A stretch of DNA of 64,000 bases. Origin: Lama guanicoe (Eukaryota). The stretch covers positions 11,980,879-12,044,878 of the forward strand of contig MU053881.1 in NCBI GenBank assembly GCA_013239625.1, in the 5' to 3' direction. The position numbers and the translations under genes are program-made. The notes under the pieces were generated by a model. That model searched no databases, was not told the origin of the DNA, and saw only the letters and a program-made list of their open reading frames with translations. This document shows, piece by piece, positions 1-53,070 of this stretch (positions are counted from its first letter, which is position 1; each line of letters starts with the position of its first letter).

Positions 1-1
1 C

Positions 2-46
2 AACACTAAACCCACGCTAAAAGAAATATTGAAAGGGCTATTCTAA
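2..46 (+). CDS. ORF1: L1 ORF1p C-terminus (partial): NTKPTLKEILKGLF*
   Basis: Manual translation resembles the conserved mammalian ORF1p end (TxPxLxExLKxxL); TAA at 44-46; lies upstream of ORF2. Confidence 0.85.
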   Translation, partial: NTKPTLKEILKGLF

Positions 47-90
47 ATAGAAAAGCAGCAGGATGCTACAGAAATGAGAAACTCACAATG

Positions 91-209
91 GTAGGTGATA
101 ACTCATGAATTACAAAGAAAGAAAACATACAAATCACTGAGAGTGGGAGAGGCAGGCAGGGAAATATAGAATATTTTTTTTTCTTTCTTTTTTAAATTTT
201 TTTTAACAG
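91..209 (+). other. Putative 119-nt GT-AG intron in the L1 inter-ORF region
   Basis: Donor ATG|GTAGGT at 90/91; about 30-nt polypyrimidine tract 174-204; acceptor AACAG|G at 209/210. Confidence 0.4.
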
Positions 210-210
210 G

Positions 211-438
211 ATGAGTTTGAGATCATGTTACTATCAGTTTAATAAAAACAGTTATAGTAATGGGTTAATAGATTTACAAAAAAGGGTAACCACAAGTCAA
301 ATATTTACAAGGGAGTCACAAAAGTTAAACAAAATCCATGATATTACAAAGGAAAATTACCAAACCACAAAAGGAAGAAGAAAGGAACAAAGAGGATATA
401 CCAATTCAACTGCAAAGATAAGTTCAAAATGGCAATAA
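211..438 (+). CDS. Putative third L1 ORF in the inter-ORF region (75 aa, basic, K/R/T/N/Q-rich)
   Basis: Open from ATG 211 to TAA 436-438; preceded by T-tract + AACAG/G; stop overlaps ORF2 start (AAA ATG GCA ATA A). Translation unproven. Confidence 0.45.
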
Positions 439-3400
439 ACACACATCTATCATTAATTACTGTAAATGTTAATGGACTAAATGCTCCAGTCAAAAGACAT
501 AGAGTGGCAGACTGGATAATAAAGCAAGAACCTTCAATATGCTGCATACAAGAGACCCACTTTAGGGAGAAGGACACATATAGATTGAGAGTGAAAGGAT
601 GGAAAAGGATATTCCATGCAAATGGAAAAGCCAAAAAAGCAGGTGTTGCAGTACTGATTTCAGACAAAATAGACTTTAAAACAAAGGCCATAAAGAAAGA
701 TAAAGAAGGACATTTTATAATGATTAAAGGAGTGATACAAGATGAAGATATTACACTCGTTAATATATATGCACCCAATATAGGAGCACCTAAGTACATA
801 CAAGAATTACTAACAGAGATAAAGGGGGATATTGATGGGAATACAATCATAGTTGGAGATTTTAACACTGCATTAACATCACTAGACAGATCTTCCAGAC
901 AGAAAATAAACAAGGCAACAGAGAAATTAAATACTACAATAGAAAAACTAGATTTGGTGGATATTTTCAGAGCATTACACCCCCAAAAAATAGAATATAC
1001 ATTCTTTTCAAGTGCACATGGAACATTTTCCAGGATCGATCATGTACTTGGACACAAAAGAAACCTCAACAAATTTAAGAAGATAGAAATTATCTCAAGC
1101 ATCTTTACTGACCACAATGCCATGAAACTGGAAATCAACAACAGAGAAACAAAGGAGAAAAAAAGAAAAGCATGGAGATTAAACAATATGTTATTGAAAA
1201 AACAATGGATCAATGAGGAAATCAAAGCTGAAATTAAAAAATACCTTGAGACAAATGATAATGAAAGCACAACCACTCAAAACCTATGGGACACAGCAAA
1301 GGCAGTGCTAAGAGGGAAGTTTATAGCGATACAGGCCTTCCTCAAAAAAGAAGAACAATCTCAAATAAACAAGTTAACCCACCACCTGAATCAATTAGAA
1401 AAAGAAGAACAAAAAGCCCCAAAAAGCAGCAGAAGGAAGGAAATAATAAAGATCAGAGAGGAATTAAATACAATAGAGATTAACAAGACCATAGAAAAAA
1501 TCAACCAAACCAAAAGCTGGTTTTTTGAAAAAGTAAATAAAATCGACAAACCTCTGGCCAAACTCACAAAGAAGAAAAAAGAGAGAGCACAAATTAGCAA
1601 AATAAGAAAGGAAAATGGAGAAATTACAACAAACAAAATAGAAATACAGAATATCATACGAGAATATTATGAAAAACTATATGGAACCAAACTGGATAAC
1701 CTAGAGGAGATGGACAAGTTTCTGGAAACATACTGTCCACCAAAACTGAATCAAGAAGAAACTGAACACTTGAACAATCCGATCACTAGAAAGGAAATAG
1801 AAATAGCAATTAAAAACCTCCCTACAAATAAAAGTCCAGGACCGGACGGCTTCACCGGGGAATTCTACCAAACATACAAAGAAGAACTCATACCAGTCCT
1901 TCTCAAACTCTTCCAGACGATTGAAAAGGAGGGAATACTCCCAAACTCATTCTATGAAGCCACCATCACCCTGATACCAAAACCAGGCAAAGACACTACA
2001 AAAAAAGAGAATTATAGGCCAATATCACTGATGAACATAGACGCCAAAATCCTCACCAAAATTTTAGCAAATAGAATCCAACAACACATAAAAAAGATTA
2101 TACATCATGACCAAGTGGGGTTCATCCCAGGGACACAAGGCTGGTTCAACATACGCAAATCAATCAATGTAATACATCACATCAACAAGAGAAAGGACAA
2201 AAACCACATGATCATCTCAATCGATGCAGAAAAAGCATTTGATAAAATTCAACACCCATTTATGATAAAAACTCTCGCCAAAGTGGGTATAGAGGGAACA
2301 TATCTCAACATAATAAAAGCTATATATGACAAACCTATAGCCAGCATAGTTCTCAACGGTGAAAAACTCAAAAGCTTCCCACTAAAATCTGGGACAAGAC
2401 AAGGATGCCCACTATCACCACTCCTATTCAATATAGTCCTGGAAGTCCTAGCCACAGCAATCAGGCAAGAGAAAGAAATAAAAGGGATCCAAATTGGAAA
2501 AGAAGAGGTAAAAGTGTCATTATATGCTGACGACATGTTACTATATATAGAAAACCCTAAAAGGTCCACAAAAAAGCTACTAGAGCTGATCGAAGAATTC
2601 AGCAAGGTAGCAGGTTACAAAATTAATGTTCAAAAATCAGTTGCATTTCTTTACACTAACGATAAATCAACAGAAAAAGAAAGTAAAGAAACAATCCCCT
2701 TTAAAATAGCACCCAAAGTAATAAAATATCTGGGAATAAATCTAACCAAGGAGGTGAAAGAATTATACACAGAAAACTATAAACCATTGATGAAGGAAAT
2801 TAAAGAAGACTTTAAAAAATGGAAAGATATTCCATGCTCTTGGATTGGAAGAATCAATATTGTTAAAATGGTCACACTGCCCAAGGCAATCTACAGATTT
2901 AATGCAATCCCTATCCAATTACCCAGGACATATTTCACAGAACTAGAACAAATCATAATAAAATTTATATGGAACCATCAAAGACCTAGAATTGCTAAAG
3001 CATTACTGAAGAGAAAGAAAGAGGCTGGAGGAATAACTCTCCCAGACTTCAGACAATACTATAGAGCTACAGTCATCAAGACAGCATGGTATTGGTACCA
3101 AAACAGACATATAGACCAATGGAACAGAATAGAGAGCCCAGAAATGAACCCACAAACTTTTGGTCAACTCATCTTCGACAAAGGAGGCAAGAATATACAA
3201 TGGAATAAAGACAGTCTCTTCAGCAAATGGTGTTGGGAAAACTGGACAGCAGCATGTAAAACAATGAAGCTAGAACACACCCTTACACCATATACAAAAA
3301 TCAACTCAAAATGGATTAAAGACTTAAACATAAGACAAGATACAATAAACCTCCTAGAGGAAAACATAGGCAAAACATTATCTGACATACATTTCAAAAA

Positions 3401-4289
3401 TTTTCTCCTAGAAGAAATAAAAGCAAGAATAAACAAATGGGACCTAATGAAACTTACAAGCTTCTGCAGAGCAAAGGAAACCAGAAATAAAACAAGAAGA
3501 AAACCTACGGAATGGGAGAAAATTTTTGCAAGTGAAACCGACAAAGGCTTGATCTCCAAAATATATAAGCAGCTCATACGACTCAATAAGAAAAAAATAA
3601 ACAACCCAATCCAAAAATGGGCAGAAGACCTAAACAAGCAATTCTCCAAGGAAGACATACAAATGATCAAAAAGCACATGAAAAAATGCTCAATATCACT
3701 AATTATCAGAGAAATGCAAATCAAAACTACAATGAGGTATCACCTCACACCAGTCAGAATGGCCGTCATTCAAAAATCCAAAAATGACAAATGCTGGAGA
3801 GGCTGTGGAGAAAGGGGAACCCTCCTACACTGCTGGTGGGAATGCAGTTTGGTGCAGCCACTATGGAAAACAGTGTGGAGATTCCTCAAAAGACTAGGAA
3901 TAGACTTACCATATGACCCAGGAATCCCACTCCTGGGCTTGTATCCAGAAGGAAATCTACTTCAGGATGACACCTGCACTCCAATGTTCATAGCAGCACT
4001 ATTTACAATAGCCAAAACATGGAAACAGCCTAAATGTCCATCAACAGGTGACTGGATAAAGAAGATGTGGTATATTTATACAATGGAATACTACTCAGCC
4101 ATAAAAACCGACAACATAATGCCATTTGCAGCAACATGGATGCTCCTAGAGAATGTCATTCTAAGTGAAGTAAGCCAGAAAGAGAAAGAAAAATACCATA
4201 TGAGATCGCTCATATGTGGAATCAAAAGACTCATGGACAGAGAATACAGACTTGTGGTTACCAGGGGGGTAGAGGGTGGGAAGGGATAG
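429..4289 (+). CDS. ORF2: L1 ORF2p: APE-type endonuclease, reverse transcriptase and C-terminal CCHC domain; intact, 1286 aa
   Basis: EN motifs NVNGLN, CIQETH, NIYAPN, GDFN, SRIDH, TDH; PIP box [10 protein letters not shown] region [17 protein letters not shown] and YADD (2523-2534); CWRGC...HCWWEC; no stops or frameshifts. Confidence 0.98.
4264..4285 (+). other. G-quadruplex-forming motif at the L1 3' end
   Basis: GGGGGG-TAGA-GGG-T-GGG-AA-GGG; identical at 17582-17603. Confidence 0.65.
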
Positions 4290-4719
4290 ACTGGGATTTC
4301 AAAATTGTAGAATAGATAAACAAGATTACACTGTATAGCACAGGGAAATATACACAAAATGTTATGATAAATCACAGAGAAAAAAATGTGACAATGAGTG
4401 TGTATATGTCCATGAATGACTGAAAAATTGTGCTGAACACTGGAATTTGACACAACATTGTAAAATGATTATAAATCAATAAAAAATGTTAAAAAAAAAA
4501 AGAAAAAGAAAAAGAGCACACAAAAAAGACCTGGCAGGGACAGGCAAAAAGGTAGGAAGAAAACCAGGTGATACATTAAGCAAGGAAAGGGTAATAGGAA
4601 GAGATAGAACTCAGTATTACTGTGAGTTACAGACTGTTTAAAATAAGGACAAAAAATCATTTTAGACAGACAATGGTAGGCACACATGAATAACAATCAA
4701 AAAAATATTAAGAATAAAA

Positions 4720-8690: not shown

Positions 8691-9050
8691 TCTTAAAAAT
8701 TGTACCCTTGGTTTACTCAGCATGTAACATCAGGTAAAATAAACCCTACCCTACCTCCTAAAAAACATCAGCCAATTGCACAGATCCTGTACAGGCACTC
8801 TGCGTGTTTCTGTCAGCCAGCTAGAGGCTGATGGAGAAGACCTGAGGTCAAACAGCTTCTGTGAAGTGACCCCAAATTCAATAAAGAGTCTTTAATCTGC
8901 TGAAGTGGTGAAAGTGACTCTACTTTCAGTCAGGAGTGGATCAATTCATTCCCAATGGAATTTTTTTTTTAAATGCTTAGATTTTACTAGTAAGCTTGTT
9001 TACAGAGCCAAGAGAAGAAAAAGGAGGAAATTCTTTTAAAATCTACTTTT

Positions 9051-9130
9051 TTTTAAACATTTTTTATTGATTTATAATCATTTTACAATGTTGTGTCAAA
9101 TTCGTGTTCAGCACAACTTTTCAGTCATTC
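9051..9130 (-). mobile_element. 80-bp 5'-truncated insertion of the young L1 family
   Basis: Reverse complement matches the last ~80 nt of the L1 at 4414-4495; TSD ATCTACTTTT at 9041-9050 and 9131-9140. Confidence 0.93.
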
Positions 9131-10527
9131 ATCTACTTTTGTTTCACTTATGTTTGCTTGAAGATCTTATGCAGAAACAGATAATATTAATGTAAAGGGA
9201 GAGAATTATTGTGTTCCTTTGCTGTGGTTACCTTTGGGTAATATTTTCACCCATTGCCAGTTCCTGTCCTATTTTCAAGAAAGACCTATTGATTTCTTAA
9301 ACCACTCAACATTACTAGGTTGCACAATTCTCTTTATCATATCAAGTTTTGCTCTGTTTATATCCTGACTAAAAACACACAGCTGCCCAAGGATAATCAA
9401 ACATGTGTGATAGTGTATTGCAAATGCTCCCTGGCTCTTTGCAGAAGTCAATTCATCCTCTCAATGCCTTTGTGAATAATCCTTTCATTCTTAAGAAGTT
9501 TATATTTTTCCTTCTTTAAAGAAATCTGAACTCCCTAGTATTTCATTTCACAACTGTCCATGTGAATATGATTAAAATAGGCTTGCTATTCTGATAAAGA
9601 TAGGTTGTCCCATGTGGTTATTTGTAACCAAGACAAAATAGTTTTACTTTATTTTGTTTTTAAAAATAAAGATTCTTTGCAAGTAAGAGGCATCCCATGG
9701 TTACTGCTACTCAGCCCTTTATTGCAATAAAAGGAAACAGTGCTGTGGGTATATTGGAGGAGAAAGATGGAATGTGGTATTATTTCTCCAAGTATTACAT
9801 CAAGAGGAATATGTATGGCAAATGATATAAAACACAGGTTAAAATGAGAATCAAAGACTTTGATGGCAAGAGGCCCTAGTAAAGAGAGAATTCCAAAGAC
9901 AGACCCATCTTTATTTTTGGCTTATAAAAACTGGGAGGGTATGTTAGATATTCTGCCATGTTTGAATATCACCCAATAAATATCTTGAGGCACTGAATGC
10001 ATGTGAAATCAAGGAAGGGAAGGAAAAGTGGATATTCTGGCACCAGTAAAGGAAAGATATTTGACTATTTAAAGGAAGGATGCTCAAGAAAGAGAAGACA
10101 ATAGAGGGGAAGTTATACTGAATTAGGCAAAAGAGAATTACAAGCCAAGCCCAAGAAAAAGCTGTGTGGGGTGAGCTGCTAGAGCAGAAGGAAAGAACTA
10201 TAAAATACAGTGCATATTCCATCCAACACTGAACTGAGCATAAATAAGAGAGCCTCACATTTCCATTTTTTAAAAATGTTTGCTTTTTATATGAATCATT
10301 ATTTTTTTCTCATTTAGAAAGGTCTTACAAGGTTGTCTTGCTAATAGCCATGAGGACAGGTCATGTAGAATTCCCATTTCCTTTTTTTTTTTTTTAACTG
10401 AGTGGGGGATGGAATGGGGGTTCACTTATTGGCAAAGGGGTTGCATTTCCTGCCCCAGAAATCAATTTCATGTACTCTACCATCTTCCTTGATCTACTCA
10501 GCTGTTAAGTGATACAACATGCTACTG

Positions 10528-16481: not shown

Positions 16482-17814
16482 TCAACTAATCTTCGACAAA
16501 GGAGGCAAGAATATACAATGGAATAAAGACAGTCTCTTCAGCAAATGGTGATGGGAAAACTGGACAACAGCATGTAAAACAATGAAGCTAGAACACACCC
16601 TTACACCATATACAAAAATCAACTCAAAATGGATTAAAGACTTAAACATAAGACAAGATACAATAAACCTCCTAGAGGAAAACATAGGCAAAACATTATC
16701 TGACATACATTTCAAAAATTTTCTCCTAGAAGAAATAAAAGCAAGAATAAACAAATGGGACCTAATGAAACTTACAAGCTTCTGCAGAGCAAAGGAAACC
16801 AGAAGTAAAACAAGAAGAAAACCTACGGAATGGGAGAAAATTTTTGCAAGTGAAACCGACAAAGGCTTGATCTCCAGAATATATAAGCAGCTCATACGAC
16901 TCAATAAGAAAAAAATAAACAACCCAATCCAAAAATGGGCAGAAGACCTAAACAAGCAATTCTCCAAGGAAGACATACAAATGATCAAAAAGCACATGAA
17001 AAAATGTTCAATATCACTAATTATCAGAGAAATGCAAATCAAAACTACAATGAGGTATCACCTCACACCAGTCAGAATGGCCGTCATTCAAAAATCCAAA
17101 AATGACAAATGCTGGAGAGGCTGTGGAGAAAGGGGAACCCTCCTACACTGCTGGTGGGAATGCAGTTTGGTGCAGCCACTATGGAAAACAGTGTGGAGAT
17201 TCCTCAAAAGACTAGGAATAGACTTACCATATGACCCAGGAATCCCACTCCTGGGCTTGTATCCAGAAGGAAATCTACTTCAGGATGACACCTGCACCCC
17301 AATGTTCATAGCAGCACTATTTACAATAGCCAAAACATGGAAACAGCCTAAATGTCCATCAACAGGTGACTGGATAAAGAAGGTGTGGTATATTTATACA
17401 ATGGAATACTACTCAGACATAAAAACCAACAACATAATGCCATTTGCAGCAACATGGATGCTCCTAGAGAATGTCATTCTAAGTGAAGTAAGCCAGAAAG
17501 AGAAAGAAAAATACTGTATGAGATCACTCATATGTGGAATCTAAAGACTCATGGACAGAGAATACAGACTTGTGGTTACCAGGGGGGTAGAGGGTGGGAA
17601 GGGATAGACTGGGATTTCAAAATTGTAGAATAGATAAACAAGATTACACTGTATAGCACAGGGAAATATACACAAAATGTTATGATAAATCACAGAGAAA
17701 AAAATGTGACAATGAGTGTGTATATGTCCATGAATGACTGAAAAATTGTGCTGAACACTGGAATTTGACACAACATTGTAAAATGATTATAAATCAATAA
17801 AAAATGTTAAAAAA
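16482..17814 (+). mobile_element. 5'-truncated young L1 (ORF2 C-terminus + 3' UTR), about 99% identical to 3164-4496
   Basis: About 14 substitutions in ~1330 bp by manual comparison; perfect 15-bp TSD ATAATACTATCCCTT at 16467-16481 and 17815-17829; nonsense change TGT>TGA near 16549. Confidence 0.97.
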
Positions 17815-18039
17815 ATAATACTATCCCTTGCCTTCACAGAGTTTAGAGTTTCTTGATTTATGTATATAAAAATTTAAATTTTATCTTTCTCCAAAATATC
17901 CTTCAATAGCAAATTCTTAAATTCAAAAGAGTCCATGCACTCCATGTCTTCCATCCTTTGTGTTTTCTCCTTCCAACTATGGCCATCACGCATCATACAC
18001 TTGTTCTGACCCCACTGAGATCTCTTGCACCCGTGTTAA

Positions 18040-19185
18040 GAAAAAAGAATTTAAAAACCTAACTTTATATCTGAAGGAACTAGAAAATAAAGAACTAAGC
18101 CCAAAGTTAGCAGAAGGACAGAAATAATAAAGATTAGAGCAGAAATAAGTGACATAGAGACTAGAAAGCCAATAGAAAGTATCAATACAACTAAAAGTTG
18201 GTTGTTTCAAAAGATAAACAAAATTGACAAACTTTTAGTTAGACTAACCAAGGAAAAAAGAGAGAAGGCTCAGATAAACAACACAGTAAATCAAAAAGAA
18301 GACATTACAACTGATACCACAGAAATACAAAGGATTATAAGAGACTACCATAAACAATTATATGCTAGCAAGTTGGATACCTGTAAGAAACAGATAAATT
18401 TCTGGAGACATACAACATACCAAGACTGAATCATGAAGTAACAGAAAATCTGACAGACCGATAACCAGTAGAGAGACTGAAGCAGTAATCAAAAACCTTC
18501 AAACAAAGAAAAGCCCAGGACCAAATGGTTTCACTAACGAGCTCTGCCAAACATTTAAAAAAGAATTAGTGCTAATCCTTCTCAAACTCTTCCAAATACT
18601 AAAGAGGAGGGAACATTCACAAGCTCATTTTATGAGACCAGCATCACCCTGATACCAAGCCAGATAAGGATGGTATAAGAAAAGAAAAACTATAGACCAA
18701 CATTCCTGAGGAATATAGATGGAAGAATTCTAAAATAAATTCTAGATTCAACAGCACATTAAAAGGATCATACACCATGATCAAGTGGGATTTATTCCCA
18801 GAATAAAAAGATGGTTCAACATATACAAATCAATGCATGCGATATACCATATTAATAGAATGAAGGATAAAAATCCTATGATCCTTTTAATAGACGGGAA
18901 AAAGAAAGCATTTACCAAAATTCAACATTTTTTCATGATAAAAGCTCTCAACAAATTGGGTACAGGAGGAACACAGCTCAACATAATACAAGCCATATAT
19001 GATAAACCCATGTTTAATGTCATATTCAATAGTGAAAAACTGAAAAGTTTTCCCTCCAAGATCAGAAGCAAGACAAGGGTGCTCACTGTCACCACTCCTG
19101 TTCAGGTACTGAAGGTCCAAGCCAGAGTAATCAGGGAAGAAAAACAAACAGAAGGCAACCTGATTGGAAAGAAGAGTAAAATTGC
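18040..19185 (+). mobile_element. Old L1 ORF2 fragment (Z region and N-terminal RT), frameshifted
   Basis: ORF fragments FQKINKIDKLLVRLTKEKREKAQI and GFIPRIKRWFNIYKS homologous to ORF2p. Confidence 0.9.
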
Positions 19186-50949: not shown

Positions 50950-53070
50950 ACTGACTGTTTGACATGTGCAGTGCCCTGTGCTAAGCAGTCTTTAACCATC
51001 ATCTCCTTTTCTCCTCAAAACAACCCAGTGAGGGGGAGTGACATTTGCAAGATGGTGGAATAGGAAGCCCTAAGACTTTCCTCTTCTCAGTGAACACACT
51101 GAATGAACAGTTCAATGACAGATTCCATTTTTAAGAAATCCAGAAATGAGTTGAGGCTCCCACACACTGAATGAGCAGGAAACCAGTCACACTGAAGCTG
51201 GTACAGAAATATGATACCTTCTTGCCAAATCCTTTCCTGCAGCATAGCATCGTATGATTGGGACAAAAAATTTCAGGTCTGAGTTTCCCCCAGGGGAGGA
51301 AAAAATAATAGAAAAAAATCAACAAAACTAAGAGTTGGATATTTGAAAAACTAAACTAAATTCATATTCCTTTAGCTGGACTAAGTAAGAAGAAGAGACA
51401 GAAGAGCTAAATAAATAAAATCAGAAACGAAAGAGCAGACAGACATTGCAACTGAAGCCACAGAAATTGGGGGGGGGGTGGTTCATAGGAGATTACTTTA
51501 AAAAATTATACTCCAACAAACTAGATAGCTTAAAAGAAATTAATAAACTCCTAGAAACATACAATCCACCAAGACTCACACATGAAATAAGAGAAAAACT
51601 GAGCAGATGGATTACCAGTAAGGAGATTAAATTAATCATCAAAAACCTCACAACAAAGAAAAGCCCAGTACCAAATGGCTTGCCTGGTGAATTCTACCAA
51701 ATATTTAAAGAATTAACCCTAATCCTTCTCAAATTCTTCCAAAAACTTGAAGAGGAAGGTAACTTCGAAACTCATACTTTGAGGTCAGCATTACCCTGAT
51801 ACCAAAGCAAACAAAGACACCTTCCAAAAGATAACTATAGGCCAGTATCCTTGATGAATATAGAGGCAAAGATCCTCAACAAAATACTAGAAAACTGAAT
51901 TCAATAGCACATTAAAAGAATCACATACCACGATCAAGTGGGATTTATTCCCTGGAATGAAAGATGGTTCAATATTCGCCAACTCATTAATGTGATACAC
52001 CACATTAGCAAAATGGTCGAAAATCACATTTAATTCCAGTAAATGCAGAAAAAGCATTTTACAGATCCAGCATCTTTCCATGATAAAAACTCTATGAAGT
52101 ATAGAATGAATGTGCTTCAACATAATAAAGGTCACGTATGACAAGCCCAAATGTCCAAAGAAGACTTATAAATGGCTACAGGTACATGAAAAGGTGCTCA
52201 ACATCATTAATTAAAAAATGCAAGTCTAAACTACAATGAGATATCATCTCACACCTGTTATAATGACTATCATAAAAAAGACCAGAGATAACAAATTCTG
52301 GTGAGGATGTGGAGAAAAGGGAACCCTTGTGCACCACTGATGGGGATGCAAAATGGTGCAGCCATGATGGAAAACAGTATGGAGGTTCCTCAAAAAATTT
52401 AAGATAGGTTTACTATATGATCCAGCAATTCCACTTCTGGCCATATGTTCAAAATAATTGAAATCAGGATCTTAAAGAGATATTAGCACCCTAATGTTCA
52501 CTGCATTCCTATGCATAATAGCCAAGATGTGGGAACAACCCAAATGTCCACCAAAGGAGGAATGTATAAAGAAAATGTGATTCATACATACAATGGAATA
52601 TTTTTCAACCTTAAAAAAGGAAATCCTGCAAATAAGCAACAATGTAGATGAACTCTGAATACATTAAGCTAAATGAAACAGCCAATCACAGCAGGACAAA
52701 TACTGAGTGATTCCACTTATATAAAAGTATCTAAAATAGTCAGACTCATAGAATCAGCGTAGAAGGTAGATGCTGAGATGGGACAGGGAAAATGGGGCGT
52801 TACTTAATAAATGGGCATAAAGTTTCAATCAGGCAGGATGAATAAGTTCTGGAGATTTGCTGCACAATATGGTGGCTAGAATTAAACATACTGTATTGTG
52901 CACTTAAAATTTTGTTAAGAGGGTAGATCTCATATTAAGTTTTCTTATCACCATTAAAAAAAAACAAACCACATGAGGTAGGCATTCGTATCGTCATTTT
53001 CTTATCAGAAACCCAAGGCCTAGAGAGATTAAATACTTTGCCTAAGATTCCATAGCCATGAAGTGAAAGT
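50950..53070 (-). mobile_element. MIR split by an L1 insertion (halves ~50950-51033 and ~52961-53070)
   Basis: CTGTGCTAAGC...CCTCAAAACAACCCAGTGAGG continues as TAGGCATT...AGAGAGATTAAATACTTTGCCTAAG. Confidence 0.65.
51034..52960 (+). mobile_element. Internally deleted old L1: 5' UTR + ORF2 segment + 3' end
   Basis: L1 start GGGAGTGACATTTGCAAGATGG; ORF2 remnant KKLYSNKLDSLKEINKLLETYNPPRL; L1MA-like 3' end; imperfect TSD AAAACAACCCAGTGAGG (51017-51033) / AAAACAAACCACATGAGG (52961-52978). Confidence 0.85.

What the first reader, a model, noticed from the sequence alone, without database searches (positions are those of the whole stretch)
211..438. Third ORF in the L1 inter-ORF region, with its stop overlapping the ORF2 start codon
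Seen: ORF1 stops at 46 and ORF2 starts at 429, a 382-nt spacer (human L1 has 63 nt). More than half of it is one open 75-codon frame (MSLRSCYYQ...[15 protein letters not shown]...KISSKWQ*), notable in such A/T-rich sequence. It ends AAA-TGG-CAA-TAA, so its stop lies 4 nt after the ORF2 ATG codon in another frame. Established: human ORF2 is translated by termination-reinitiation after an upstream ORF, and overlapping stop/start junctions couple translation in caliciviruses and the SART1 retrotransposon. Inference: this L1 lineage may be tricistronic, with the extra ORF delivering ribosomes to ORF2 and/or encoding a small basic nucleic-acid-binding peptide. I recall a similar T-tract/AG/ATG...KWQ* layout in pig L1, but this is unverified.
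Basis: partly seen in the sequence, partly recalled or inferred. Interest (0 to 1): 0.85.

Follow-up and report, generated by a model that had tools for sequence, protein, structure and literature searches.

The report
Long upstream ORF abutting L1 ORF2
The spacer between the two genes of this mammal's LINE-1 retrotransposon holds a 73-79 codon reading frame that ends on the start of the second gene and stayed open for tens of millions of years while its amino acids drifted freely, which suggests it carries ribosomes to that gene and does not make a useful peptide.

Summary
ORF1 ends at 46, ORF2 (1286 aa, intact) starts at 429, and a 75-codon ATG frame runs 211-438. Its TAA lies 4 nt after the ORF2 ATG.

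I compared 65 independent L1 copies from the same genome, sampled by ORF2 anchors that do not depend on the spacer.
- **Stops:** none of 52 variants shared by at least 6 copies creates a stop in this frame (4.0 expected, P=0.012). At the looser threshold of at least 4 copies there are 2 stops (5.2 expected, P=0.09).
- **Indels:** all three shared indels (6, 12, 30 nt) are in frame.
- **Amino acids:** changes are as frequent as chance predicts (13 synonymous, 39 non-synonymous; 11.8 synonymous expected).
- **Rate:** the first 120 nt evolve almost as fast as the non-coding spacer.

Best reading (about 0.5): a long upstream ORF whose translation up to the ORF2 start matters, not its peptide. That fits termination-reinitiation.

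No protein relatives, Pfam match or RNA family were found, and no expression data could be obtained. Published pig L1 consensus sequences share the junction, T-tract and ATG, but the frame is interrupted there. Long L1 spacers, and a 3.3-fold effect of removing their small ORFs in a megabat L1, are already published. This is a new variant of a known kind.

The parts
1..46 (+). 3' end of L1 ORF1, stop TAA at 44-46
   Evidence: The same C-terminal peptide ends the 300-aa ORF1 of copy L015, which matches Pfam Transposase_22 and Tnp_22_dsRBD. Upstream of the window the sequence reads N.
47..428 (+). Inter-ORF spacer (IGR), 382 nt here and 397 nt in the dominant young subfamily
   Evidence: Long spacers are published for alpaca, horse, megabat, panda, pig, elephant, hyrax and opossum L1.
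63..140 (+). Four very short upstream ORFs (ATG 63, 74, 88, 105; 4-11 codons). Only ATG 105 is kept in all subfamily groups.
174..204 (+). Pyrimidine (T) tract just upstream of ATG 211. Its length varies between subfamilies, and a T-tract sits at the same place in pig consensus sequences.
   Evidence: pig by eye.
211..438 (+). The extra ORF: 75 codons here, 73, 65 or 79 in other subfamilies. Start context is A at -3, with G at +4 in most copies (A in the window, T in the oldest group).
338..421 (+). Second small ORF (27 codons, third frame) ending 7 nt before the ORF2 ATG. It occurs only in the recent subfamilies.
331..428 (+). Purine-rich 3' part of the spacer. It evolves about half as fast as the rest of the spacer and is recognisably shared with pig L1.
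   Evidence: Shared-variant density 0.224 per nt, against 0.463 (47-210) and 0.383 (211-330). Pig by eye.
429..438 (+). Overlap ATGGCAATAA: ORF2 start codon and the extra ORF's stop
   Evidence: ATG at 429 and TAA at 436 are the commonest forms in all five older groups. The motif AAATGGCAATAA occurs 34 times in the pig consensus file.
429..4289 (+). L1 ORF2, intact, 1286 aa (endonuclease and reverse transcriptase)

Best explanation
The frame 211-438 is a long upstream ORF of ORF2 that selection keeps open so that ribosomes translating it terminate on top of the ORF2 start codon (UAA 5 nt past the AUG) and can restart there. This is translational coupling by termination-reinitiation.

Shown: the frame exists. 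It has stayed free of stops and frameshifts in every independent subfamily sampled. Its amino-acid sequence is not constrained. Its ATG and the ORF2 junction are kept.

Inferred: that it is translated at all, that termination at 436-438 feeds initiation at 429, and how ribosomes reach ATG 211. They could resume scanning after ORF1 and the short ORFs at 63-140, or enter near the T-tract.
For: 1. Sampling. Copies were chosen by ORF2 anchors that do not depend on the spacer.
- A 22-mer gave 793 exact hits; the first 100 were listed, 80 were fetched and 61 span the spacer.
- An older-state 29-mer gave 194 hits; 100 were listed, 40 were fetched and 21 span the spacer.
- After dropping 18 copies that are duplications of dead insertions, 65 sequences remain, the window included.

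2. Stops.
- Variants shared by at least 6 copies: 13 synonymous, 39 non-synonymous, 0 stop-creating. Placing the same base changes at random sites of the frame gives 4.0 stops, P(0)=0.012.
- At least 8 copies: 0 stops, 3.8 expected, P=0.015.
- In none of five older groups is the commonest codon at any position a stop.
- Stops seen in 2-4 copies are scattered across groups, except one at a CGA codon in 3 of 6 copies of one group.

3. Indels. The only shared indels inside the frame are 6, 30 and 12 nt, all in frame. Modal segment lengths of 66, 63 and 89 nt hold from the oldest to the youngest group. In 47-210 the shared indels are 1, 2, 3, 8-10 and 20 nt.

4. Intactness equal to ORF2's. The frame versus the first 70 ORF2 codons is intact in 22 vs 23 of 23 young copies, 8 vs 8 of 21 intermediate copies and 1 vs 5 of 21 old copies.

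5. Age. The oldest groups differ pairwise by 16-18%, so the frame has been open for roughly 8-9% of neutral decay, which is tens of millions of years.

6. No constraint on the product. 13 synonymous of 52 variants against 11.8 expected (P=0.39). Shared-variant density is 0.383 per nt in 211-330, 0.463 in the non-coding 47-210 and 0.19 in ORF2.

7. Start codon. ATG 211 with A at -3 is kept in all groups.

8. Published support.
- Changing all spacer AUGs to AGU in a reconstructed megabat L1 lowered retrotransposition 3.3-fold, and a shuffled spacer lowered it 8.8-fold (Yang 2014, passages read).
- That paper cites Alisch 2006 for ORF2 translation depending on termination of a nearby upstream ORF. 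I did not read Alisch 2006 itself.
Against: - No evidence of translation or even transcription.
- The statistics are post hoc and depend on the threshold. With variants shared by at least 4 copies there are 2 stop-creating variants (5.2 expected, P=0.09). In the 44 younger copies alone P(no stop) is 0.15-0.33.
- Three in-frame indels are a small sample (1/27 under equal thirds).
- In pig consensus sequences with the homologous spacer, the frame from the matching ATG has an internal TAA followed at once by ATG, or is shifted. The last small ORF ends at +5, ends at -34, or runs in frame into ORF2, depending on an A-run of 7-10 (hand reading; run lengths in consensus sequences are unreliable). 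Continuity is therefore not a general requirement.
- Pig subfamilies with 67-68 nt spacers, and human and mouse L1, do without it.
- From general knowledge: reinitiation after 75 codons is usually inefficient, and four AUGs lie between the ORF1 stop and ATG 211.
- In HeLa assays, long megabat and pig spacers lower activity compared with the human spacer.
Confidence: 0.5

Rival explanations
1. The frame is an untranslated by-product of an A-rich, T-poor spacer. ORF2 is reached by internal ribosome entry or another route that uses the conserved purine-rich 331-428, and the open frame has persisted by luck.
For: - A frame this long arises in 0.9% of shuffles, which is not vanishingly rare given how many L1 lineages with long spacers exist.
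- Amino acids evolve neutrally.
- The part of the spacer that is really conserved is 331-428, and 3 of its 4 shared changes in the younger set are non-synonymous, as expected for an RNA element.
- Pig does not keep the frame whole.
- Internal entry sites upstream of ORF2 are reported for mouse L1 and predicted in silico for long spacers (Boissinot and Sookdeo 2016, passages).
- The stop-avoidance P value weakens to 0.09 at the loosest threshold.
Against: - 0 stops against 4.0 expected among 52 subfamily-level variants.
- 3 of 3 shared indels are in frame.
- Intactness matches that of ORF2.
- The other two frames of the same stretch gain or lose stops at 6-7 of the same variants.
- No Rfam match, and predicted folding no better than shuffles (z=-0.11).
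Confidence: 0.3
2. The frame encodes a functional small basic peptide, a third L1 protein.
For: - The frame is kept open.
- The C-terminal third is rich in K and R.
- In the 44 younger copies, synonymous changes are somewhat over-represented at the strictest threshold (7 of 15, P=0.075).
Against: - Over the whole sample, 13 synonymous to 39 non-synonymous equals expectation.
- Subfamilies tolerate losing 2 or 10 codons or gaining 4.
- No Pfam family.
- Only two near-identical hits in 5.8 billion clusters and one in 1.84 billion representatives.
- Pig breaks the frame.
Confidence: 0.07
3. The T-tract followed by AG at 174-210 is a 3' splice site that yields a spliced L1 RNA lacking ORF1. The ATG behind it is incidental.
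For: Pyrimidine tract plus CAG/G directly before ATG 211. Other copies read CAGTAG/G. That L1 RNAs are spliced in human is recalled, not checked here.
Against: - Pig consensus sequences keep the T-tract and the ATG but have no AG between them (by eye).
- This does not explain why the downstream frame stays open.
- No read data could be laid.
Confidence: 0.04
4. The frame is joined to ORF2 by a programmed -1 frameshift and forms an N-terminal extension of ORF2p.
For: ORF2 lies in the -1 frame relative to the extra ORF, and the ORF2 frame is open back to 342 (worked out).
Against: - No X XXY YYZ slippery heptamer in 342-436 (read).
- No stable structure downstream.
- An extension would be expected to constrain the peptide, which is not seen.
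Confidence: 0.02

Closest known systems
Human L1 ORF2 translation by unconventional termination-reinitiation (Alisch et al. 2006, as cited in Yang 2014 and Boissinot 2016; not read here)
   Same: A downstream L1 ORF2 whose translation is proposed to depend on termination of an upstream ORF close to its start.
   Different: In human the spacer is 63 nt and the upstream ORF is ORF1 or a tiny ORF. Here a dedicated 73-79 codon ORF fills more than half of a 382-397 nt spacer, overlaps the ORF2 AUG, and shows an evolutionary signature of being kept open.
Long spacer of megabat L1 lineage 1 with its 'small ORFs' (Yang et al. 2014, PMC4072516)
   Same: A spacer of about 400 nt in a laurasiatherian L1. 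Its AUGs were shown to matter: changing them to AGU lowered retrotransposition 3.3-fold. The authors interpret this as reinitiation and were puzzled by the spacer's persistence.
   Different: No single long conserved ORF or frame conservation was described there.
Pig L1 spacers (Chen et al. 2019, PMC6501411, Additional file 1)
   Same: Homologous spacer: T-tract, ATG followed by GTTTGAG, a purine-rich 3' part, and the junction AAAATGGCAATAA with a small ORF ending ...KWQ*.
   Different: In the homologous pig type the frame is split by a stop or shifted. A different pig spacer type carries a 99-codon frame ending at the same junction (hand translation).
Stop/start coupling in caliciviruses (TURBS) and the SART1 retrotransposon (UAAUG)
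   Same: Stop and restart codons lie within a few nucleotides of each other.
   Different: Here the stop lies 5 nt downstream of the AUG, not overlapping it. No 18S-complementary motif within about 70 nt of the restart site was established, and the upstream ORF is not a functional protein gene.
Primate L1 ORF0 (Denli et al. 2015, as cited in Ivancevic 2016)
   Same: A lineage-specific extra ORF of about 70 codons in L1.
   Different: ORF0 is antisense in the 5' UTR and its product is reported to raise mobility. This ORF is sense, lies between ORF1 and ORF2, and its product looks unconstrained.

Membership tests
LINE-1 element with a long inter-ORF spacer | ORF1 with L1 RNA-binding domains upstream and ORF2 with endonuclease and reverse transcriptase downstream, separated by a non-overlapping spacer | tested here: met
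   Pfam on L015 ORF1 and on the window's ORF2. The spacer is 382 nt.
Termination-reinitiation (translationally coupled) ORF pair | The upstream ORF's stop lies within a few nucleotides of the downstream start | tested here: met
   TAA 436-438 and ATG 429-431. Both are the commonest form in all groups.
Termination-reinitiation (translationally coupled) ORF pair | Downstream translation depends on translation and termination of the upstream ORF | not testable with these tools
   Needs reporters or ribosome profiling. The only indirect support is that the frame is kept open while the peptide is not constrained.
Termination-reinitiation (translationally coupled) ORF pair | A cis element that holds the post-termination ribosome (TURBS-like 18S complementarity or a structure near the junction) | tested here: inconclusive
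   331-428 is conserved, but there is no excess structure and no Rfam family. Complementarity to rRNA was not computed.
Conserved protein-coding gene (functional micropeptide) | Purifying selection on amino acids (excess of synonymous change) | tested here: not met
   13 synonymous to 39 non-synonymous against 11.8 synonymous expected, P=0.39. Power is limited: the first 70 codons of ORF2 give only 8 to 14.
Conserved protein-coding gene (functional micropeptide) | Relatives or a recognisable domain | tested here: not met
Internal ribosome entry site of the mouse-L1 or dicistrovirus kind | Structured or protein-binding RNA directly upstream of ORF2 that recruits ribosomes without upstream translation | tested here: inconclusive
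   A purine-rich conserved stretch is present. No structure signal or Rfam hit. Activity is not testable here.
Programmed -1 frameshift site | Slippery heptamer X XXY YYZ followed by a structure, in the overlap of the two frames | tested here: not met
   None seen in 342-436 on reading. The fold of 47-470 is unremarkable.

The most novel reading that the evidence does not exclude
This L1 lineage is functionally tricistronic. The conserved T-tract plus ATG 211 acts as an internal landing site, resembling the pyrimidine-tract-spacer-AUG motif at the 3' edge of picornavirus entry sites (recalled, not tested). The sequence-free ORF then serves only to carry ribosomes across about 220 nt to the ORF2 AUG, so ORF2p output is set by a dedicated upstream ORF and not by ORF1 translation.
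Probability: 0.15. Interest if true: 0.8.

Novelty: new variant of a known kind. Interest (0 to 1): 0.55.

Why it matters
How ORF2 of the bicistronic L1 RNA gets translated is a long-standing open question. Reinitiation and internal entry are both proposed, and only the short-spacer human and mouse elements have been studied in depth.

Long spacers in many mammals have been called puzzling, because they lower activity in cell assays yet persist. Here an ORF has kept its frame but not its sequence for tens of millions of years and ends on the ORF2 start. That offers an explanation for why such a spacer persists, and it gives clean experimental handles: the start codon, the frame and the stop position.

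The support so far is comparative only, comes from one genome, and the idea that small ORFs in the spacer aid reinitiation is already published.

Tried and rejected
- **Protein searches with the 75-aa product.** They returned only this genome's own kind: 2 hits and 1 representative. Pfam gave none.
- **RNA searches.** Rfam at E<=1 on 1-700 gave none. The fold of 47-470 has z=-0.11.
- **Sequencing runs.** No RNA holder was listed.
- **The search of earlier findings.** Nothing by sequence, words or place.
- **First shared-variant test on all 62 sequences.** Rejected. It mixed in 12 copies that share TAA at 277 and TGA at 379, and 6 copies with an ATA start and a 2-nt ORF2 deletion.
  - I first read the 12 as an old subfamily lacking the frame.
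  - One search showed their relatives lie in same-strand arrays about 34-35 kb apart on a few contigs. They are duplications of one decayed insertion and say nothing about active founders.
  - The 6 share an ORF2 frameshift and were dropped on the same reasoning. Their being duplicates is inferred, not shown.
- **Protein-ranked list of copies.** 150 were scored of 3107 candidates, and by my count 12 have one stop. It is not used as evidence because the ranking favours intact frames.
- **Pattern with up to 3 mismatches.** It listed only exact hits again.
- **Supplements not read.**
  - Boissinot and Sookdeo 2016: the zip was listed but not opened. It may hold pig, elephant and opossum spacer sequences and entry-site predictions.
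  - Pig paper, Additional file 2: not read, so the pig consensus sequences I read are not assigned to named subfamilies.
  - Pig sequences could only be read by eye, not put through scripts.

Full report
**What is in the window**

Window 1-46 is the end of L1 ORF1 (...NTKPTLKEILKGLF, TAA 44-46). ORF2 runs 429-4289 and is intact (1286 aa, endonuclease plus reverse transcriptase). Between them lie 382 nt.

An ATG frame of 75 codons runs 211-438. Its TAA (436-438) begins 4 nt after the ORF2 ATG, giving ATGGCAATAA.

ORF1, the extra frame and ORF2 occupy three different frames. Upstream of ATG 211 there are four short ORFs (ATG 63, 74, 88, 105; 4-11 codons) and a T-tract (174-204). Inside the frame there are out-of-frame ATGs at 225, 260 and 338. 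The one at 338 opens a 27-codon ORF ending 7 nt before the ORF2 ATG.

In 5000 dinucleotide-preserving shuffles of 47-460, an ATG frame of at least 75 codons appeared 47 times. That is unusual but not extreme.

The stretch before the window reads N, so this copy's ORF1 is not visible. A young copy, L015, has a 300-aa ORF1 with L1 ORF1p domains, a 73-codon version of the frame, and ORF2.

**The window's copy is odd**

Its ORF2 429-1950 differs at 0-1 of 1510 places from the young copies. Its 47-330 differs from every other copy at more than 10 places, including two 2-nt indels.

The best other copies are 95% identical over the spacer. No sequencing run holds more than 72% of the sampled words of 1-900.

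The stretch borders a run of N. It may therefore be a recombinant, a converted copy or poor sequence at a gap edge. I cannot tell which. The forms common in the genome are a 75-codon and a 73-codon version.

**Sampling other copies**

The host assembly (2.05 Gb, 55,231 contigs) can be searched. Searches ranked by similarity return mostly the dominant young subfamily:
- DNA search: 40 scored of 2080 candidates.
- Protein search: 150 scored of 3107 candidates, about half of them identical 73-aa copies, and by my count 12 of the 150 with one stop.

Ranking favours intact frames, so I did not use these as evidence. I sampled instead by exact ORF2 motifs, which do not depend on the state of the spacer, and took hits in contig order:
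- A 22-mer at window 468-489 has 793 exact hits. The first 100 were listed, 80 were fetched and 61 span the spacer.
- A 29-mer with the older Ile codon at ORF2 residue 21 has 194 hits. 100 were listed, 40 were fetched and 21 span the spacer.

**A false trail**

In the first sample, 12 copies (16-19% from the window) share TAA at 277-279 and an A-to-T change at 379. That change makes TGA in the frame and, at the same time, an ATG in the ORF2 frame 17 codons upstream. I first took them for an old subfamily without the frame.

A search with one of them showed that the 40 best relatives lie on the same strand in arrays spaced about 34-35 kb apart on a few contigs (C2504, C5360, C7373, C6328, C6432, C979). 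They are one decayed insertion multiplied by tandem or segmental duplication, and they say nothing about active founders.

Six further copies share an ATA in place of the ORF2 ATG and a 2-nt deletion in ORF2. I dropped these as well. Their being duplicates of a dead copy is inferred.

**The test on independent copies (65 sequences including the window)**

The older sample falls into groups that differ pairwise by 14-18%. That corresponds to roughly 8-9% decay per copy, or tens of millions of years at usual mammalian rates. I recall that rate and did not measure it.

- **Frame length.** From ATG 211 to the ORF2 ATG the modal segment lengths are 66, 63 and 89 nt in all groups. One oldest group has 89+12. 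The only shared indels inside the frame are 6 nt (young subfamily, 73 codons), 30 nt (one older subfamily, 65 codons) and 12 nt (oldest group, 79 codons). All are in frame. In 47-210 the shared indels measure 1, 2, 3, 8-10 and 20 nt.
- **Stops.** In no group is the commonest codon at any position a stop. ATG 211, ATG 429 and TAA 436 are the commonest forms everywhere. Placing the same base changes at random sites of the frame gives these expectations:

| Variants shared by | Synonymous | Non-synonymous | Stop-creating | Stops expected | P |
|---|---|---|---|---|---|
| at least 6 copies | 13 | 39 | 0 | 4.0 | 0.012 |
| at least 8 copies | 11 | 35 | 0 | 3.8 | 0.015 |
| at least 4 copies | 19 | 47 | 2 | 5.2 | 0.09 |

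  At the loosest threshold one of the two stops is at a CGA codon and the carriers are scattered. In the other two frames, 6-7 of the same variants touch stops.
- **Amino acids.** 13 synonymous of 52 against 11.8 expected (P=0.39). The method has little power: the first 70 ORF2 codons give 8 synonymous to 14 non-synonymous.
- **Rates.** Shared-variant density per nt is 0.463 in 47-210, 0.383 in 211-330, 0.224 in 331-428 and 0.19 in ORF2 429-638. The first 40 codons are nearly free. The last third is constrained, but by changes that alter the peptide (3 of 4 in the younger set).
- **Intactness of whole copies**:

| Copies | n | Extra frame intact | First 70 ORF2 codons intact |
|---|---|---|---|
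| Young | 23 | 22 | 23 |
| Intermediate | 21 | 8 | 8 |
| Old | 21 | 1 | 5 |

  This is as expected if the frame was intact at insertion about as often as ORF2.
- **Younger copies alone.** In the 44 younger copies the signal is weak (no stops P=0.15-0.33).

Taken together, the absence of stops and three in-frame indels give a nominal probability near 4 in 10,000. The tests were chosen after seeing the data.

**Other species and the literature**

Long spacers are published:
- Alpaca 442, horse 328, megabat 407(445), panda 580, hyrax 421, elephant 458, opossum 531 (Yang 2014, Table S2, read).
- Pig 390-529, except two subfamilies with 67-68 (Chen 2019, passages).
- Boissinot and Sookdeo 2016 discuss gain and loss of the spacer and in-silico entry-site predictions (passages).

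Yang et al. tested a reconstructed megabat spacer. It lowers activity about 26-fold compared with the human one. A shuffled version is 8.8-fold worse than the native one. Changing all spacer AUGs to AGU costs 3.3-fold, which they read as reinitiation helped by 'small ORFs'. So the idea is in print and partly tested.

Four searches of the open library listed no paper describing a conserved long ORF in a mammalian L1 spacer. I read only the listings, apart from the papers named here.

I read the pig consensus sequences (Additional file 1 of Chen 2019) by eye.
- The junction AAATGGCAATAA occurs 34 times.
- One spacer type is homologous to the window's over its whole length (T-tract, ATG followed by GTTTGAG, purine-rich end).
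- In that type the frame from the matching ATG meets TAA after 47 codons, followed at once by ATG and a further 27 codons ending ...KWQ* at the same junction. In an older consensus it is shifted and stops after 21 codons.
- Depending on an A-run of 7, 8 or 10, the last small ORF ends 34 nt before the ORF2 ATG, ends 5 nt after it, or runs in frame into ORF2.
- A second pig spacer type, unlike the window's in its 5' part, has a 99-codon frame ending at the junction.
- Run lengths in consensus sequences are unreliable, and I could not put these sequences through scripts.

Continuity of the frame is therefore not shared with pig. The overlap itself follows from ORF2 codons M-A-I-(N/R), which pig shares.

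**Mechanism**

A frame that avoids stops and frameshifts while its product drifts fits an ORF that matters through being translated. The stop sits on the ORF2 start, so the simplest reading is coupling by termination-reinitiation (confidence about 0.5).

The steps from 'kept open' to 'translated' and 'feeds ORF2' are inferred. Arguments against:
- Reinitiation after long ORFs is inefficient.
- There are AUGs upstream of ATG 211.
- The frame is broken in pig.
- Long spacers are inhibitory in cell assays.
- There are no expression data.

Rivals, with my confidence in each:
- The frame is a lucky by-product, and ORF2 is reached through the conserved purine-rich 331-428 (0.3).
- A functional peptide (0.07).
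- A splice acceptor at the T-tract/AG (0.04). The AG is absent in pig.
- A frameshift fusion (0.02). No slippery site is present.

**Verdict**

This is a new variant of a known kind, of moderate interest.

Noticed in passing
Loci L093-L099, L111-L140 (contigs C2504, C5360, C7373, C6328, C6432, C979): One old, decayed L1 copy recurs on the same strand at about 34-35 kb spacing, with about 10% divergence between units. This looks like a large tandem or segmental repeat array carrying an L1 fragment.
   Followed up: partly
Same array copies, window-equivalent positions 378-381 and 429-431: A single A-to-T change makes an ATG in the ORF2 frame 17 codons upstream and a TGA in the extra frame (ATGA). 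The usual ORF2 start is ATG, TTG or ATA among these copies. This may be post-insertion decay.
   Followed up: partly
L031, L049, L067, L069, L074, L089: Six copies on small contigs share ATA in place of the ORF2 ATG and a 2-nt deletion at window-equivalent 499-500. Three of them also share a stop at codon 15 of the extra frame. A dead copy was multiplied by some route other than its own ORF2.
   Followed up: no
window 1-345 versus 346-1950: More than 10 differences private to this copy cluster in the 300 nt next to a run of N. The following 1500 nt are identical to the young subfamily. The stretch may be recombinant, gene-converted or poor sequence at a gap edge.
   Followed up: partly
window 344-850, minus strand: A 168-codon antisense ATG frame overlies the spacer end and the ORF2 start. 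Copy L015 has a 181-codon version.
   Followed up: no
window 174-204 and about 365-392: The minimum-energy fold pairs the T-tract with the purine-rich tract 170 nt downstream, looping out the first half of the extra ORF. Both tracts also occur in pig. Overall folding is no better than shuffles.
   Followed up: no
window 16482-17818 and other stretches (9047-9132, 18071-19184, 51308-52617): Further L1 fragments lie in the window. One 3' piece is 98.9% identical to 3164-4500. None covers the spacer.
   Followed up: no
L012, L015-L030 (young subfamily), window-equivalent about 126: The dominant young subfamily carries a 20-nt insertion in the 5' spacer together with the 6-nt in-frame deletion. 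L008 has the deletion only and L003 has neither, while all share an identical ORF2 5' part. Several spacer forms therefore coexist among the youngest copies.
   Followed up: partly
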